DNA of 64,000 nucleotides, from positions 632,392 to 696,391 of the forward strand of contig OY970229.1 of the NCBI GenBank assembly GCA_963714085.1, in the 5' to 3' direction. The position numbers and the translations under genes are program-made. The stretch comes from an uncultured Candidatus Micrarchaeota archaeon (GTDB taxonomy: Archaea; Micrarchaeota; Micrarchaeia; Anstonellales; Bilamarchaeaceae). The notes under the pieces are model-generated. The model saw only the letters and a program-made list of their open reading frames with translations, was not told the DNA's origin and made no database searches. Positions 48,512 to 52,790 of the stretch are shown here, one piece after another; position 1 is the stretch's first letter, and each line of letters opens with the position of its first letter.

Positions 48512-48843
48512 TGCTCTCCCATGAAAGCGGCGCCAAAGGCACCAAACCCATCAAGCGCCTCGAGAACCTGCTCACGTTCGGCAACCTCTGGCTCTACATC
48601 CTCTCGCTAATAAAGAGGAAAGGCAGGGCTTACGCCTACATGCTCGACTCCGGCATCGAGAAGGAGTTCGCGTTCAAGCCTTCCAAGGTCATGGTCTACA
48701 TAGTGCTCTACAAACTCGAGAACGAGGGCCTCATAAAGTCCGAGTTCGAGGAGCGCAGGAAGTACTACAGCATGACGAAGAAGGGCGACGGCACCCTCAA
48801 GGCGGCGAGGCAGTATTTCAAGGTCCTTGCAAGCAAACTGTGA
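48511..48843 (+). CDS. PadR-family transcriptional regulator
   Basis: LWLYILSLIKRKGRAYAYML...MVYIVLYKLENEGLIKSEFEERRKYYSMTKKG: PadR wHTH pattern. The ATG overlaps the upstream TGA by 1 nt. Confidence 0.8.
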   Translation: MLSHESGAKGTKPIKRLENLLTFGNLWLYILSLIKRKGRAYAYMLDSGIEKEFAFKPSKVMVYIVLYKLENEGLIKSEFEERRKYYSMTKKGDGTLKAARQYFKVLASKL

Positions 48844-48849
48844 CCTAAG

Positions 48850-49398
48850 ATGCGGATCATCATAACTGGAACCCCAGGTACCGGCAAGACCAGGATCAGC
48901 CGGATGCTCGCCAAGAGGATGAGGCTCCCGCTCGTCGAGATAAAGGAATTCGTGAACGATAACCGTATCTTCAGGATGGAGAAGGGTGAGAAGACGGTCG
49001 ATGTAGGAAAGCTGAGGAGAAAGCTCCTTCCGCGTTTGACCGGCCTCGGGCGGGCAGGCGGCTACGTGGTGGAAGGCCACCTCGCCTGCGAGATGAAGCT
49101 GCCTGCGGATTTCGTCTTCGTGCTCCGGACCCACCCTAAAAAGCTCAGGCAAAGGCTCGCACCGAGGCGTTATAGCAGGAAGAAAATAGACGAAAACCTC
49201 GAAGCCGAGATGCTCGATTACTGCGTGCAGAGGGTGGAGTCGGTCTACGGCATAAGACCGCTCGAGCTCGACACCACGGAGCGCACGGCCCTGGTTTCCG
49301 CGCAGGTTATGCTAAAAGCCGTGAAGGCAAAGAAAAAAAAGCTTGACGCACCAGATTACTCATCGGAACTGGAATCCTTCCTGGGGCTACGATCATGA
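48850..49398 (+). CDS. Fap7/adenylate kinase isoenzyme 6-like nucleotide kinase
   Basis: MRIIITGTPGTGKT P-loop. Size and layout match archaeal Fap7/AK6. Confidence 0.75.
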   Translation: MRIIITGTPGTGKTRISRMLAKRMRLPLVEIKEFVNDNRIFRMEKGEKTVDVGKLRRKLLPRLTGLGRAGGYVVEGHLACEMKLPADFVFVLRTHPKKLRQRLAPRRYSRKKIDENLEAEMLDYCVQRVESVYGIRPLELDTTERTALVSAQVMLKAVKAKKKKLDAPDYSSELESFLGLRS

Positions 49399-50002: not shown

Positions 50003-51397
50003 CTAGAACCCGAGCAGGTCCTTCACCATACCCACCGCATTGCCGCCGGTCTCCTCTTCTTCTTCAGGCTCCTCCTCCTTGGCGGTCTTTTTGCCTTTGG
50101 CTTTTTTAGGTTTTTTCGCGGGTTTCGGCTCAGGCTCTTCCTCTTCTGGTTCCTTCTTGGCCTCCTTCTCCTCTGATTCGTCGCCTAGGCCGATGTCCCA
50201 GAAAGGCTTCCCTTCTTTCTTTTGCTTTTTCCTGGGTTTGGGCTCTGGCTTCTTCTCCTCAGGTTCTTGCTTCTCCTTTTCAGCCGGCTCGCCCTCCCCG
50301 GATTCATCGCCGAAGCCTAGGCCCCAGAACGGCTTGCCTTCCTTCTTCGGCTGTTCCTCGGGCTCTTTCTCTTCATGAGCTTCCTTCTCCTCTTCTGCAG
50401 GTTTAGCCGGGCTCTCCGCGGACTCTCCGCCGAAGCCGAGGTTCCAGAACTGCCTGCCTTCTTTCTTAGGCTTTTCCCTGGGCTTCGCCCCGGAACCGAG
50501 CAGCTTGAGCAGCAGCGCCTCCTGCGCCCACATCCTGTTCTCGGCCTGGTCCCATACCGCGGTGGCGCTCGCGCCGTCCAGCACGGAATCCGTTATCTCC
50601 TGGCCCCTGTGCGCGGGCAGGCAGTGCATCACTATGCAGTCCGGCTTCGCGAGCTTCAACAGCCCGTCGTTCACCTGGTATGGCGTGAGCTTCTCGATGC
50701 GCTCGGCCTGGCTGGCCTCCTCGCCCATGGACACCCAGACGTCGGTGTATATCACGTCGGCGTCCTTGACCGCATGATTCGGGTCGCTCGTGACCTCGAC
50801 CTTGGCCCCGGATTTCCATGCGGACTCCAGCGTCTCGCCCTTGGGGAGGTATCCCTTCGGGCCGCAGAGCACCACGTGCATGCCATAGCGCGCGGCTATG
50901 TGCATTATCGAGGTCGCCACGTTGTCCGCCGCGTCCCCTATGAAGACCAGCTTGCCCTTGTCCTTGCCGTGCTCGATTATGGTCTGCATGTCAGCGAGCG
51001 CCTGGCAGGGGTGCTCGAGGTTCGTGAGCGCGTTTATGACCGGGACCGTTGCGTGCTTCGCCAGCTCCTCCAGGTCCGAGTGCTTGGAAAGCCTCGCGGT
51101 TATGGCATGGCAGTAGCGGGAGAGCACGCGCGCGGTGTCGGCCAGGGTCTCGCCCCTGCTGATCTGGGAGCTGTTGAAATCCATGACTATGGACTGGCCG
51201 CCGAGGTTAGCCATCGCGGTCTCGAAGGAGAGCCGCGTGCGTGTGGACGGCTTCTCGTAGAGCGATATTAGGACCTTGCCCCTCAGGTCGTCCCGCGCCC
51301 GATCGTTCTCCTCCTTGAGCTGCATCGCGAGGTCAACTACTTCCCTCATGAAGTCTTCGGGCATGTCCCGCATGGTCAGCACGTTCATAGTAATCAT
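50003..51397 (-). CDS. argF: Ornithine carbamoyltransferase with a ~163-aa K/E/P-rich C-terminal repeat extension
   Basis: STRTR, HPCQALAD, DVWVSMG (OTCase-type SMG), HCLPAHRG. Start uncertain (Met codons at comp. 51397, 51388, 51373). The track ORF start at 51442 lies inside tnpB. Confidence 0.85.
   Translation of the reverse strand: MITMNVLTMRDMPEDFMREVVDLAMQLKEENDRARDDLRGKVLISLYEKPSTRTRLSFETAMANLGGQSIVMDFNSSQISRGETLADTARVLSRYCHAITARLSKHSDLEELAKHATVPVINALTNLEHPCQALADMQTIIEHGKDKGKLVFIGDAADNVATSIMHIAARYGMHVVLCGPKGYLPKGETLESAWKSGAKVEVTSDPNHAVKDADVIYTDVWVSMGEEASQAERIEKLTPYQVNDGLLKLAKPDCIVMHCLPAHRGQEITDSVLDGASATAVWDQAENRMWAQEALLLKLLGSGAKPREKPKKEGRQFWNLGFGGESAESPAKPAEEEKEAHEEKEPEEQPKKEGKPFWGLGFGDESGEGEPAEKEKQEPEEKKPEPKPRKKQKKEGKPFWDIGLGDESEEKEAKKEPEEEEPEPKPAKKPKKAKGKKTAKEEEPEEEEETGGNAVGMVKDLLGF
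50177..50467 (-). repeat. Three spaced copies of a KKEG(K/R)(P/Q)FW-x-(L/I)G(F/L)G(G/D)ES coding repeat within the argF tail
   Basis: KKEGRQFWNLGFGGES (about 50417-50467), KKEGKPFWGLGFGDES (about 50300-50347), KKEGKPFWDIGLGDES (about 50177-50221). Confidence 0.8.
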
Positions 51398-51399
51398 CG

Positions 51400-52790
51400 T
51401 ATCCTGGAAAGCATCATCCCGGCAACCGCGTGAACTACCCATGTCTAAAGCCCTGGGCTTCCTGTTTCATTGAAGATACTTGCCAGTTACGTTTATAACC
51501 AGTAGAGGTCTCTTCTCCACAGGCCTTACTTCCCGGCGTCCCGCCGGTAGCTCGTTGGAGTATGTTTATCGCCGCATTGAGGTCCCTGTGCATGGATGCC
51601 CCGCACGGGCAATCGTGCCACCTCTCCGCAAGCGACTTCTTTCGTATAAGACCGCAGTTGCTGCACCTCTGCGAGGTGTGGGCAGGATTCACCAGCACGA
51701 CTTCGCAACCAGCTCCTTCCGCCTTGTAGCTGATCATGCTGACGAACTCCGCCCAGCTGCAGTCCAATACCTCTTTCGCCAGGAAACCCCGCGTCAATCC
51801 TTCGTTGTTCAGCGCTTCCATGGCTATGAGCGAATGATTCTCCACAAGGGCGCGGCTTGCCTTGTGCAGGAAATCCCTTCTTTTGTTCGCGAGCCTCTCA
51901 TAGGCGATTGCAACCGCTTTTCTGTTTTTGGCCCTGTTTGAGCTGCCTTTCGTTTTATTCGACATCCTCCGCTGGACGAGCTTAAGCCGTTCCTCTGCCA
52001 ATCTGAGATTCCGCGGATTCTCTATCCTTGAGCCGTCGCTCAGATAGGCGAATGTTTCTATCCCCAAGTCGATTCCGACTGGAGACGCCTTATTTCTCTC
52101 CGGCGTCTTTCTTTCGGATTCGGTCGTGAAAATCGCATACCACTTCCCTGAAGGGGATTTCTTTATGGTAAGGGTTTTGATTCTACCATCCATCTCCCTG
52201 TGTTTCCTGATTGCCACGCTCCCGATTCCTGACAGCTCCAGCTTGTCTTTGAGCTTGAAGCCGAACTGGGGATAAGTCATGGATTTCACCCGTTCGAATG
52301 ATTTGAACCGCGGAAATCCTGCTTTCCTGCGGGCTTTTTTCCTTGCGACCACCCCTTTCAGGGATTTCACAAGCCTGTCTGCGACGTTCTGGGCTACCTG
52401 GGAATAAAGCCCCGTATCCTTTGCCAGAATATAGAGATGCTTTCGAGTCGGGAATTTCTTTGTTTCCTCGTAATATCCCTTCGTGTGATCCAGCAAGGAA
52501 TTCCAGAGTGTTTTGCATTCGTAGAACTGACGGTTCAGCAATTTTTCCTGGCTTCTTGAAGGGTATAACCTGTACTTCCAAGCGCGCGTCAGTCTCATAA
52601 AGCTTTGCCGGAAAGGCTGTTTATAAGCGTTTCCCGGGTGCATTTCCGCGGTGCGCACGACGCAGTTGAGCAGATTCGGCCCTTTCATCCCATATTTGAA
52701 AATATGGGACTTCCCGGGCCTAAGGCATTTAAAAGTCGTCCCCGAACGTTTAAATATGTTTGCGCCCAAATCTCATCTCTACGTAATTCT
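51400..52790 (-). mobile_element. TnpB-only IS200/IS605-family (IS1341-like) element; ends approximate
   Basis: Contains only tnpB. No tnpA and no obvious terminal inverted repeats. It is wedged between argF and rps10. Boundaries were not determined. Confidence 0.55.
51435..52598 (-). CDS. tnpB: TnpB (IS605 OrfB) RNA-guided endonuclease family protein
   Basis: MRLTRAWKYRLYPS start. RuvC-I GIDLGI, RuvC-II IAMEALN, zinc finger CSNCG...CPCG, RuvC-III HRDLNAAINIL. All catalytic positions present. Confidence 0.9.
   Translation of the reverse strand: MRLTRAWKYRLYPSRSQEKLLNRQFYECKTLWNSLLDHTKGYYEETKKFPTRKHLYILAKDTGLYSQVAQNVADRLVKSLKGVVARKKARRKAGFPRFKSFERVKSMTYPQFGFKLKDKLELSGIGSVAIRKHREMDGRIKTLTIKKSPSGKWYAIFTTESERKTPERNKASPVGIDLGIETFAYLSDGSRIENPRNLRLAEERLKLVQRRMSNKTKGSSNRAKNRKAVAIAYERLANKRRDFLHKASRALVENHSLIAMEALNNEGLTRGFLAKEVLDCSWAEFVSMISYKAEGAGCEVVLVNPAHTSQRCSNCGLIRKKSLAERWHDCPCGASMHRDLNAAINILQRATGGTPGSKACGEETSTGYKRNWQVSSMKQEAQGFRHG

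What the first reader, a model, noticed from the sequence alone, without database searches (positions are those of the whole stretch)
50006..50494. Ornithine carbamoyltransferase with a 163-aa charged C-terminal extension carrying three FW-x-LGFG repeats
The OTCase core ends near ...MWAQEALLLKLLG. The ORF then continues with a K/E/P-rich low-complexity tail. It contains three spaced copies of KKEG(K/R)(P/Q)FW(N/G/D)(L/I)G(F/L)G(G/D)ES and ends in GNAVGMVKDLLGF. As far as I know, OTCases do not carry such tails. Short aromatic motifs embedded in a disordered charged linker resemble multivalent docking or scaffolding peptides.
Basis: seen in the sequence. Interest (0 to 1): 0.6.

Follow-up and report, generated by a model that had tools for sequence, protein, structure and literature searches.

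The report
Disordered address tail on archaeal OTCase
An ordinary arginine-pathway enzyme (ornithine carbamoyltransferase) of a tiny Micrarchaeota archaeon really carries a 163-residue floppy charged tail, and the oldest part of that tail, a short end-peptide (...KDLLGF), also ends unrelated proteins of the same archaeal family, so it probably acts as a shared address tag for a target that is still unknown.

Summary
The minus-strand ORF (50003-51397; true start probably 51397) is a bona fide OTCase plus a 163-aa K/E/P tail (50006-50494) with three KKEG[KR][PQ]FWx[LI]G[FL]G[DG]ES motifs and the end GMVKDLLGF.

It is not an assembly error:
- Nine protein clusters from independent assemblies carry a tail.
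- These clusters form one clade (support 97/96).
- Indels in the tail are all multiples of three.
- Tail dN/dS is 0.20, and AlphaFold2 predicts the tail as disordered.

Seventy-six diverse OTCases, and all other Micrarchaeota OTCases inspected, stop right after the last core helix. A profile of the tail finds nothing among 1.84 billion proteins.

The FW-GFG motif is the youngest element: 0 copies in basal members, then 1, then 3. The ancestral, invariant element is the C-terminal tip [VM]V[KRED][DS]LLGF-COOH. The same tip, after a differently charged linker, ends the THEP1-type NTPase of many genomes of this family, and one repeat protein.

My best reading is a tethered C-terminal docking peptide for a shared partner (0.4). 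The main rival is a MinD-like membrane anchor (0.3). The target is unknown. The genome lacks ArgG/ArgH but has carbamate kinase, so the enzyme is probably not biosynthetic. This is a new variant of a known kind, of moderate interest.

The parts
50495..51397 (-). OTCase catalytic core (residues 1-301 of the 464-aa protein; carbamoyl-phosphate and ornithine domains)
   Evidence: Pfam PF02729 (6.7e-47) and PF00185 (4.6e-54). NCBIfam TIGR00658 at 371 bits, above its cut-off of 281, and NF001986 at 386 bits, above 306. The motifs STRTR, HPCQ, DVWVSMG (SMG loop) and HCLP are visible. AF2 pLDDT is 88-98.
50006..50494 (-). 163-aa K/E/P-rich disordered C-terminal tail (residues 302-464; 50% charged, net charge -10)
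   Evidence: sequence; pLDDT 35-60, no secondary structure; dN/dS 0.196, in-frame indels; composition; no relatives outside the clade.
50420..50467 (-). FW motif copy 1: KKEGRQFWNLGFGGES (residues 311-326)
50300..50347 (-). FW motif copy 2: KKEGKPFWGLGFGDES (residues 351-366)
50174..50221 (-). FW motif copy 3: KKEGKPFWDIGLGDES (residues 393-408)
50078..50125 (-). Conserved basic patch KPAKKPKKAKGKKTAK (residues 425-440)
   Evidence: The lysines and Gly135 are invariant in the three-species tail alignment. A related K-rich patch is present in P0003, P0004 and P0005.
50051..50077 (-). Acidic patch EEEPEEEEE (residues 441-449)
50006..50035 (-). C-terminal tip VGMVKDLLGF-COOH (residues 455-464). 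This is the ancestral, invariant element of the tail and is shared with other proteins of the family.
   Evidence: (D/S)LLGF ends all 9 tailed OTCase clusters. The G001/L036 record is the same sequence as cluster P0003 plus an MP- start, and ends the same way. The same tip ends THEP1-type NTPases and a repeat protein of family f1.
50003..50005 (-). Stop codon TAG
   Evidence: TAG is a common stop of long ORFs in this genome (431 of about 1495 ORFs of 250 aa or more).

Best explanation
The gene encodes a normal trimer-forming ornithine carbamoyltransferase. In one clade of Micrarchaeota it has gained a 'tether plus address' module. The module is a flexible, highly charged, disordered linker of 43-174 residues depending on lineage. 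The linker presents a short, helix-prone hydrophobic peptide at the very C-terminus (...KK-x-x-V-V-[KR]-D-L-L-G-F-COOH).

The same end-peptide sits behind quite different linkers on unrelated proteins of the same archaeal family. I therefore read it as a short linear docking motif recognised by one common partner. On this reading the linker only provides reach (fly-casting), and the tip brings OTCase to that partner or site.

The FW-x-LGFG motifs arose later inside the linker and were triplicated in this lineage. They contain the same L-G-F core as the tip. They most likely act as extra low-affinity copies of the same contact, raising valency to 4 hydrophobic units per chain and 12 per trimer.

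Shown: the tail is translated, selected and predicted disordered; it had a single origin and lengthened stepwise; the tip is shared across protein families. Inferred: that the tip binds something, that the target is a protein, and that the FW motifs add valency.
For: 1. Real and selected. Tailed orthologues occur in independent assemblies. Six indels are all multiples of three and tail dN/dS is 0.196 (0.11-0.34). Amino-acid identity is 84% in the motifs plus tip and 70% in the spacers.
2. Predicted disordered. In the short-tailed P0035 the last 20 residues are modelled as a helix, not docked on the core and with low confidence.
3. Single origin and growth. The 9 tailed clusters form one clade (97/96). 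Tail length rises along it: 43-51, 66-68, 89, 109, then 161-174 aa. The tip is present in all of them. The FW motif has 0 copies in basal members, then 1, then 3.
4. Shared tip. THEP1-type NTPases (PF03266) of G293, G419, G259, G420, G024 and G008 end ...[KR/S]D[LF]LGF after a K-rich linker. A 446-aa repeat protein of G422 ends ...IRDLLGF. G000's own NTPase ends ...REWVREHIGF. ArgF and this NTPase are the only two ORFs of G000 that end in hydrophobic-G-F after a stretch that is more than 55% charged.
5. The linkers differ while the tip is shared. ArgF tails have net charge -10 to +2 and NTPase tails +8 to +22. This argues that the tip, not linker charge, is the functional unit.
6. Lineage restriction. 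Real-ORF occurrences of [KR]D[LF][LF]GF-stop were found only in family f1 among 401 genomes of the phylum. This fits a lineage-specific receptor.
7. Precedent for OTCase in physical complexes. Pyrococcus furiosus carbamate kinase and OTCase form a channelling complex (reviewed in PMC6022934). G000 has a carbamate kinase.
Against: - No partner was identified and no binding was tested.
- The NTPase tips tolerate variation (EHIGF, EHVGV, ELIGI, NWFGL, KRILS). That is more typical of a generic amphipathic helix than of a strict sequence motif.
- AF2 gives the tip low confidence.
- Beyond the last 6-8 residues the ArgF and NTPase tails are not significantly similar (BLASTP E = 0.083). Common descent of the tails is therefore not shown, and convergence on a merely hydrophobic end is possible.
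- The L-G-F resemblance between the FW motifs and the tip is by eye only.
Confidence: 0.4

Rival explanations
1. Membrane tether. The tip is a weak MinD-type membrane-targeting amphipathic helix. The Lys-flanked Phe-Trp motifs are additional interfacial anchors. Trimerisation plus several units per chain gives enough avidity to hold OTCase, and separately the NTPase, at the cytoplasmic face of the membrane, for example next to a citrulline/ornithine or arginine transporter.
For: - The tip is at the extreme C-terminus and is preceded by KK(G).
- It is amphipathic: hydrophobic moment 0.40-0.47 for ArgF tips and 0.51-0.70 for NTPase tips.
- It is modelled as a helix in P0035.
- The variation tolerated in NTPase tips is typical of membrane-targeting sequences.
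- Haloferax MinD4 has the same design: a long C-terminal extension with acidic blocks and a membrane-targeting sequence of about 7 residues at the very end (bioRxiv 10.1101/2020.04.03.021790).
- One MinD membrane-targeting sequence is too weak alone and needs oligomerisation (PMC8155659), which fits the stepwise gain of hydrophobic units here.
- Trp and Phe next to Lys are classic interfacial residues (general knowledge).
- A membrane metabolon has been proposed for the related putrescine transcarbamylase (PMC3282769).
Against: - The ArgF tail is net negative (-10).
- The ArgF tip has net charge 0 and an almost invariant Asp.
- Its amphipathicity does not exceed that of shuffled versions (fraction of shuffles reaching the observed value 0.07-0.26).
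- The near-identity of KDLLGF across unrelated proteins is more than a generic lipid-binding helix needs.
- No MinD-type protein is present in G000 for comparison.
Confidence: 0.3
2. Self-directed element. The tip docks back on the OTCase oligomer, as helix 13 of putrescine transcarbamylase lands on helix 1 of the neighbouring subunit. In that way it would control trimer stability or supratrimeric assembly, or cross-link trimers.
For: PTC's C-terminal helix carries the weak signature (L/f/v/i/m)xx(F/Y/L/M/v)(L/i/m) (PMC3282769), and V-K-D-L-L or M-K-D-L-L fits it. OTCases differ in oligomeric state, and helix 1 mediates those contacts (PMC3282769).
Against: - The same tip ends unrelated proteins, which an OTCase-specific docking site does not explain.
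- The linker is 43-174 disordered residues rather than PTC's 4-residue connector.
- AF2 did not dock the tip on the core in either model, although monomer models cannot show inter-subunit docking.
- The PTC signature is so loose that a chance fit is likely.
Confidence: 0.08
3. Non-specific disordered appendage. The tail would act as an entropic bristle, solubility or crowding modifier, or a tolerated read-through product with no defined binding target.
For: About a dozen ORFs of this genome carry K/E/P-rich low-complexity stretches. The spacers evolve fast and change length freely. There are no relatives among 1.84 billion proteins.
Against: dN/dS is 0.2 even in the spacers. The last five residues are invariant across the whole clade while everything else changes. 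The same tip occurs on other proteins. The FW units were amplified and then conserved at the protein level despite synonymous divergence.
Confidence: 0.1
4. Ribosomal-stalk mimic. The charged linker plus hydrophobic end copies the aP1 stalk tail and binds translation GTPases or the ribosome.
For: The architecture resembles the genome's own aP1: a Lys/Glu-rich hinge ending ...EEQAAEGLASLFG. The ArgF tail ends ...EEEEETGGNAVGMVKDLLGF.
Against: The defining GLxxLFG pattern is not matched: the spacing and the order of the G and F residues differ. The tip family consensus (KK-hh-x-x-h-[KR]DLLGF) is distinct from the stalk tip.
Confidence: 0.04
5. Assembly or sequencing artefact (lost stop or frameshift) creating a false read-through.
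For: None found.
Against: The same architecture appears in nine 90%-identity clusters from independent JGI, ENA and NCBI assemblies. Synteny is conserved, indels are in frame, and the tail is under purifying selection.
Confidence: 0.01

Closest known systems
Anabolic/catabolic ornithine carbamoyltransferases (ArgF/ArcB; e.g. Pyrococcus furiosus OTCase, PDB 1PVV as cited in PMC3282769)
   Same: Both Pfam domains are present and the TIGR00658 score is above its cut-off. The STRTR, HPxQ, SMG-loop and HCLP motifs are present. The AF2 core model is confident.
   Different: Known OTCases end within about 0-12 residues of the last helix (76 of 76). Human OTC has only a 7-residue extension (PMC3282769). 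This one adds 163 disordered residues with motifs and a conserved end-peptide.
Putrescine transcarbamylase of Enterococcus faecalis (C-terminal helix 13; PMC3282769)
   Same: It is a transcarbamylase with a lineage-defining C-terminal extension that ends in a hydrophobic helix. The loose helix-13 signature is formally matched by VKDLL. The genome has an agmatine deiminase and a carbamate kinase.
   Different: The specificity loop here is the OTC-type DVWVSMG, not the PTC-type (Y/W)(G/W)(V/L/I)x. TIGR04384 scores 275 bits against a cut-off of 500. The extension is 163 disordered residues, not a 25-residue docked helix.
MinD / Haloferax MinD4 C-terminal membrane-targeting sequence (Szeto et al. 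2002 as cited in PMC8155659; bioRxiv 10.1101/2020.04.03.021790)
   Same: A short amphipathic peptide sits at the extreme C-terminus, preceded by Lys residues. In MinD4 it lies at the end of a long extension with acidic blocks. It works only through oligomer avidity.
   Different: The carrier here is a metabolic enzyme. The ArgF tip is net neutral with a conserved Asp, and the tail is net negative. Membrane binding is untested. The sequence conservation (KDLLGF) is tighter than these membrane-targeting sequences usually show.
Tethered C-terminal docking tips on disordered linkers: bacterial SSB C-terminal tip, archaeal/eukaryotic ribosomal stalk aP1/P1 tail, Hsp70 EEVD (named from general knowledge)
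   Same: The layout is a disordered linker of variable length and composition with an invariant short peptide at the free C-terminus. The same tip is reused by several proteins or copies to reach one hub.
   Different: The tip sequence is different and its receptor is unknown. It is confined to one Micrarchaeota family. Internal tip-like FW-x-LGFG copies are not a feature of those systems.
FG-repeat nucleoporins / sticker-and-spacer disordered regions
   Same: Aromatic-Gly motifs (FW..GFG) are spaced by charged, Pro-rich disordered spacers.
   Different: There are only 0-3 copies and there is no transport-receptor context. The motif is absent from the basal members of the clade.

Membership tests
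Ornithine carbamoyltransferase (ArgF/ArcB, TIGR00658) | Both transcarbamylase domains (PF02729 and PF00185) present, and the equivalog model score above its curated cut-off | tested here: met
   (E-values 6.7e-47 and 4.6e-54). (TIGR00658 at 371 bits against 280.85; NF001986 at 385.8 against 306).
Ornithine carbamoyltransferase (ArgF/ArcB, TIGR00658) | Carbamoyl-phosphate motif STRTR, HPxQ, the ornithine SMG loop (DxxxSMG) and HCLP | tested here: met
   STRTR, HPCQ, DVWVSMG and HCLPAHRG are all present and invariant in the alignments. The signature definitions come from PMC3282769.
Ornithine carbamoyltransferase (ArgF/ArcB, TIGR00658) | Catalytic activity with ornithine/citrulline, and its physiological direction | not testable with these tools
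   Context only. No ArgG was found and no ArgH above its cut-off. Carbamate kinase scores 357 bits and carB is present.
Putrescine carbamoyltransferase (TIGR04384) | 230-loop signature (Y/W)(G/W)(V/L/I)x in place of xSMG | tested here: not met
   The sequence has VSMG. The criterion is from PMC3282769.
Putrescine carbamoyltransferase (TIGR04384) | Model score above the curated cut-off | tested here: not met
   275.5 bits against a cut-off of 500.
Putrescine carbamoyltransferase (TIGR04384) | C-terminal helix 13 of about 20-25 residues directly after helix 12, carrying the signature (L/f/v/i/m)xx(F/Y/L/M/v)(L/i/m) | tested here: inconclusive
   The loose signature fits VKDLL. However, it lies after 150 disordered residues, not a 4-residue linker.
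MinD-type C-terminal membrane-targeting sequence | Short amphipathic helix at the extreme C-terminus | tested here: inconclusive
   The hydrophobic moment is 0.40-0.47 for ArgF tips, no better than 7-26% of shuffles, and 0.51-0.70 for NTPase tips. AF2 models a helix in P0035 at pLDDT 44-52.
MinD-type C-terminal membrane-targeting sequence | Net positive charge that favours anionic lipids | tested here: not met
   The ArgF tip has net charge 0 and the whole tail -10. The NTPase linkers do meet this feature (+8 to +22).
MinD-type C-terminal membrane-targeting sequence | Direct lipid binding and membrane localisation | not testable with these tools
   Needs liposome co-sedimentation or GFP-fusion imaging.
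Ribosomal stalk aP1/aP0 C-terminal tail | Terminal G-L-x-x-L-F-G motif after a charged hinge | tested here: not met
   The genome's own aP1 ends EGLASLFG. The ArgF tail ends GMVKDLLGF, with different spacing and order.
Short linear C-terminal docking motif shared by several proteins (generic SLiM concept) | The same short peptide at the C-terminus of unrelated proteins, conserved while the flanks diverge, and lying in a disordered region | tested here: met
   (tip shared, linkers differ). (disorder).
Short linear C-terminal docking motif shared by several proteins (generic SLiM concept) | An identified receptor that binds the motif | not testable with these tools
   No multimer prediction or interaction data were available.

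The most novel reading that the evidence does not exclude
The ...KDLLGF-COOH tip is a family-wide address tag read by a dedicated, still unknown receptor of these host-dependent Micrarchaeota. One candidate is the undescribed envelope or cell-to-cell transfer machine encoded a few kb away in the same window. On this reading selected cytosolic enzymes (OTCase, a THEP1-type NTPase) would be concentrated at, or even passed through, the contact site with the host. The FW-x-LGFG units would be internal copies of the tag that raise valency.
Probability: 0.08. Interest if true: 0.85.

Novelty: new variant of a known kind. Interest (0 to 1): 0.5.

Why it matters
DPANN archaea such as Micrarchaeota live on other archaea, and almost nothing is known about how their few metabolic enzymes are organised in the cell. 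This finding shows three things.

- A core enzyme has acquired a selected, disordered tether, and that tether has progressively lengthened.
- The end-peptide of the tether is reused on unrelated proteins of the same family. That is a clean, experimentally tractable hint of a lineage-specific localisation or docking system with an unknown hub or membrane site.
- The clade offers a natural series: tip only, then one internal motif, then three. This series shows how multivalent short linear motifs are born by internal duplication.

If the target is a transporter, the carbamate kinase or the host-contact apparatus, it would bear on how these symbionts harvest arginine-derived energy. That question arises because the genome has carbamate kinase but no ArgG/ArgH.

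If the tail turns out to be only a weak membrane anchor, it is a modest addition to the list of peripheral-membrane enzymes.

Tried and rejected
1. Metagenome scan with the tail alignment. The tool chose low-complexity K/E patterns, and none of the 600 matches was a relative.
2. My own degenerate pattern for PFWxxG[FL]GDE in metagenome contigs. It was swamped by a non-coding cyanobacterial repeat that translates as PLLPFWEKGLGDEG, with stops all around it.
3. HMMER profile of the tail against 1.84 billion representatives: 0 hits.
4. Tail protein and FW-motif DNA pattern against 400 Micrarchaeota genomes. Only the own genome matched, apart from a weak low-complexity match. The 20 pattern hits are off-frame or in membrane segments, at about the control rate.
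5. Several tip-pattern hits proved to be chance. G002 C49, G365, G019, G152 and the f6 genome G217 are off-frame or antisense.
6. Stalk mimicry was rejected after reading the genome's own aP1.
7. PCNA PIP box, HbYX, PGF-CTERM sorting signal and encapsulin cargo peptide were considered from memory. I rejected them on motif spacing, on the absence of a transmembrane segment, or because nothing matched in the family searches.
8. The putrescine transcarbamylase reading was rejected on the SMG loop and the model score (PMC3282769).
9. BLASTP of an ArgF tail against an NTPase tail was not significant beyond the tip (E = 0.083), so common descent of the tails is not claimed.
10. AF2 monomer models did not dock the tip.
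12. There is no MinD in G000 to compare membrane-targeting sequences with.
Full report
**What is there**

The minus strand of 50003-51442 is one open frame. Its first 301 residues, counted from the ATG at 51397, are a textbook ornithine carbamoyltransferase.
- Pfam finds OTCace_N and OTCace.
- NCBIfam TIGR00658 scores 371 bits against a cut-off of 281.
- The STRTR, HPCQ, DVWVSMG and HCLP motifs are present and invariant in alignments.
- The start at 51397 is preferred over the first ATG at 51442 because orthologues begin at MNVLT and the upstream tnpB stops at 51435.

After ...EALLLKLLG the frame continues for 163 codons (50494 to 50006) to a TAG.
- The tail is 50% charged, has net charge -10 and contains 19 prolines.
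- It also has a basic patch, an acidic patch and the end GMVKDLLGF.
- No Pfam or NCBIfam model touches the tail.

**Organism and context**

The genome is a single 1.57-Mb contig with 57% G+C. The nearest named record, and many homologues, are Candidatus Micrarchaeota, a DPANN lineage. Earlier notes of this scan agree on this.

The genome lacks argininosuccinate synthase and has no argininosuccinate lyase above the model cut-off. It does have a carbamate kinase (357 bits), carB and an agmatine deiminase (PF04371, 380 bits). The enzyme is therefore unlikely to serve arginine biosynthesis. A role with carbamate kinase in the carbamoyl-phosphate/ATP direction is plausible but inferred. It is an OTCase, not a putrescine transcarbamylase. 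It keeps the SMG loop that distinguishes the two (criterion from PMC3282769), and it scores far below the PTC model cut-off.

**Not an artefact, and unusual**

Searching 5.8 billion proteins with the tail region, and then with the whole protein, recovered nine 90%-identity clusters of tailed OTCases from independent JGI, ENA and NCBI assemblies. One more tailed sequence lies in a species-representative genome of the same genus. Gene order is conserved: rps10, argF, scpB.
- Between G000 and its closest relative P0002 the tail differs by six indels, all multiples of three.
- Tail dN/dS is 0.196 (bootstrap 0.11-0.34), against 0.08 for the core.
- The motifs plus tip are 84% identical and the spacers 70%.
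- AlphaFold2 models the core at pLDDT above 90 and the whole tail at 35-60 with no secondary structure.

By contrast, 76 OTCases from across bacteria and archaea end 0-12 residues after the last helix. So do the 67 other Micrarchaeota OTCases in the tree. A profile of the tail finds nothing among 1.84 billion representative proteins. It also finds nothing in 400 other genomes of the phylum or elsewhere in its own genome.

**How the tail evolved**

A maximum-likelihood tree of 79 OTCase cores puts all nine tailed clusters on one branch (support 97/96, one change needed). Tail length increases up that clade:

| Clusters | Tail length (aa) | FW-type motif |
|---|---|---|
| P0035, P0045 | 43-51 | none |
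| P0006, P0007 | 66-68 | none |
| P0005 | 89 | degenerate GFFGMLGGG |
| P0003, P0004 | 109 | one (SFWGFGFGD, HFWDLGFDQ) |
| G000 (P0001), P0002 | 161-174 | three |

The three copies in G000 are 75-80% identical at the DNA level, and many of the differences are at synonymous positions. They are therefore old duplications that have been kept.

What never changes is the extreme C-terminus. All nine clusters end (K)K-x-[DN/G]-[VM]-[VM]-[KRED]-[DS]-L-L-G-F. The G001 genome sequence, which is cluster P0003 plus an MP- start, ends the same way.

**The tip is shared with other proteins**

A DNA pattern for D-[LF]-[LF]-G-F-stop in 99 genomes of the same family returned many chance hits. It also returned a set of real C-termini.
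- In G293, G419, G259, G420, G024 and G008 a protein of about 250 residues ends ...[KR/S]D[LF]LGF. It consists of a THEP1-type P-loop NTPase domain (PF03266, 143-149 bits) and a roughly 80-residue Lys-rich linker.
- A 446-residue repeat protein of G422 ends ...IIRTIRDLLGF.
- G000's own orthologue of the NTPase carries a 100-residue K/E tail ending ...KKDALREWVREHIGF.
- Orthologues in 13 genomes of the family show the consensus KK-G-h-h-x-x-h-[KR]-[DE]-[LFH]-[LIV]-G-[FVIL].
- Within G000, only ArgF and this NTPase end in hydrophobic-Gly-Phe after a stretch that is more than 55% charged.
- Among 401 genomes of the phylum, real-ORF cases of [KR]D[LF][LF]GF-stop were seen only in this family. The other hits were off-frame or antisense.
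- The linkers in front of the tip are quite different: net -10 to +2 in ArgF and +8 to +22 in the NTPase.
- Beyond the tip the tails are not significantly alike.

The shared functional unit is therefore the end-peptide.

**Mechanism**

The anatomy is that of a tethered address peptide. It has a disordered linker of free length and composition, an invariant short hydrophobic peptide at the free C-terminus, and reuse on unrelated proteins.

My preferred reading (0.4) is a short linear docking motif for one common partner. The near-identity of KDLLGF across protein families, the conserved Asp and Gly, and the irrelevance of linker charge all point to sequence-specific recognition. OTCase complexes with carbamate kinase are known in Pyrococcus (PMC6022934), but no partner was identified here.

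The main rival (0.3) is a MinD-like membrane-targeting helix.
- In its favour: the tip is C-terminal, preceded by KK(G) and amphipathic, with hydrophobic moment 0.4-0.7. It is modelled as a helix in the short-tailed P0035.
- The NTPase tips vary as such membrane-targeting sequences do.
- Haloferax MinD4 has just this layout (bioRxiv 10.1101/2020.04.03.021790). Single MinD targeting sequences need oligomer avidity (PMC8155659), which would make sense of the stepwise gain of Lys-flanked Phe-Trp units on a trimeric enzyme.
- Against it: the ArgF tail is net negative, the tip is neutral and contains Asp, and its amphipathicity is no better than that of shuffled versions.

On either reading the FW-x-LGFG units, which share an L-G-F core with the tip (by eye), are best seen as added low-affinity contacts that raise valency.

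Minor rivals are as follows:
- A PTC-helix-13-like contact with the OTCase oligomer itself (0.08). It is hard to reconcile with the same tip on an NTPase.
- A non-specific disordered appendage (0.1). It is contradicted by the invariant tip and the dN/dS value.
- Stalk mimicry (0.04). The genome's own aP1 tip, EGLASLFG, does not match.
- An artefact (0.01).

**Comparison with what is known**

The protein is a member of the OTCase family; every feature testable here is met. It is not a PTCase. The tail has no described relative. It works like known C-terminal tips on disordered linkers (SSB tip, stalk P1 tail, Hsp70 EEVD, MinD and MinD4 membrane-targeting sequences), but membership in any of these is either not met or untestable here. 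I file it as a new variant of a known kind: a well-known enzyme with a lineage-specific tether and address peptide.

**Limits**
- No multimer prediction was available.
- Both metagenome scans were wasted, one on low-complexity patterns and one on a cyanobacterial repeat.
- The genomes searched are samples of their groups.
- The tip's target remains unknown.

Noticed in passing
window 51435-52769 (-): A TnpB-only IS200/IS605-type element (PF07282, PF01385, PF12323) sits between rps10 and argF. Its stop is 38 nt upstream of the likely argF start. In the closest relative (L032) the rps10-argF gap is an uninterrupted 125 bp. In G000, argF must therefore be transcribed from inside the element or by read-through from it.
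   Followed up: partly
own genome G000:C1:1094453-1095256 (-), outside the window; orthologues L263, L266, L267, L268, L277, L288, L291-L301: The THEP1-type NTPase (PF03266) of this Micrarchaeota family carries an 80-170-aa Lys-rich, histone-H1-like disordered tail. The tail ends in the same kind of amphipathic tip as the ArgF tail (KDLLGF, DFLGF, ELIGF, EHIGF). From memory, characterised THEP1 proteins have no such tail.
   Followed up: partly
own genome G000:C1:1186257-1186562 (+), outside the window: A 102-aa ORF with no Pfam match ends ...AEEENAESGFGSMFG. That is an acidic stretch plus a GFGxMFG tip, which looks more like a ribosomal-stalk P1/P2 tail than the ArgF tip does. It may be a second stalk-tip-bearing protein.
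   Followed up: no
L116:556-1434 (+) = G000:C1:1490654-1491532: The aP0 (L10) homologue directly upstream of aP1 is 292 aa and ends ...GSALEGLETKKQ. It lacks the acidic hinge and hydrophobic tip that archaeal aP0 usually shares with aP1 (general knowledge).
   Followed up: no
own genome:: Arginine and polyamine gene content is odd. OTCase, carbamate kinase, CPSase large subunit and agmatine deiminase are present, but no ArgG and no ArgH above the cut-off, in a single-contig genome. This suggests carbamoyl-phosphate-linked ATP gain from imported citrulline or agmatine rather than arginine synthesis.
   Followed up: partly
L119-L198 (metagenome contigs): A widespread non-coding cyanobacterial repeat translates in one frame to ...PLLPFWEKGLGDEG, flanked by stops. 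It will swamp any peptide-pattern search for PFWxxGLGDE.
   Followed up: no
own genome G000:C1:613843-615042 (-), outside the window: A 400-aa protein has a Lys/Ala/Pro-rich N-terminus, about 200 residues of Glu/Pro/Lys low complexity (the most K/E/P-rich stretch of the genome) and a C-terminal transmembrane anchor.
   Followed up: no
L032:8630-9386 versus window 48843-48850: The closest relative has an NTP_transf_2/HEPN pair (a toxin-antitoxin-like module) between the AAA_18 kinase gene and padR. In the window these two genes are directly adjacent.
   Followed up: no
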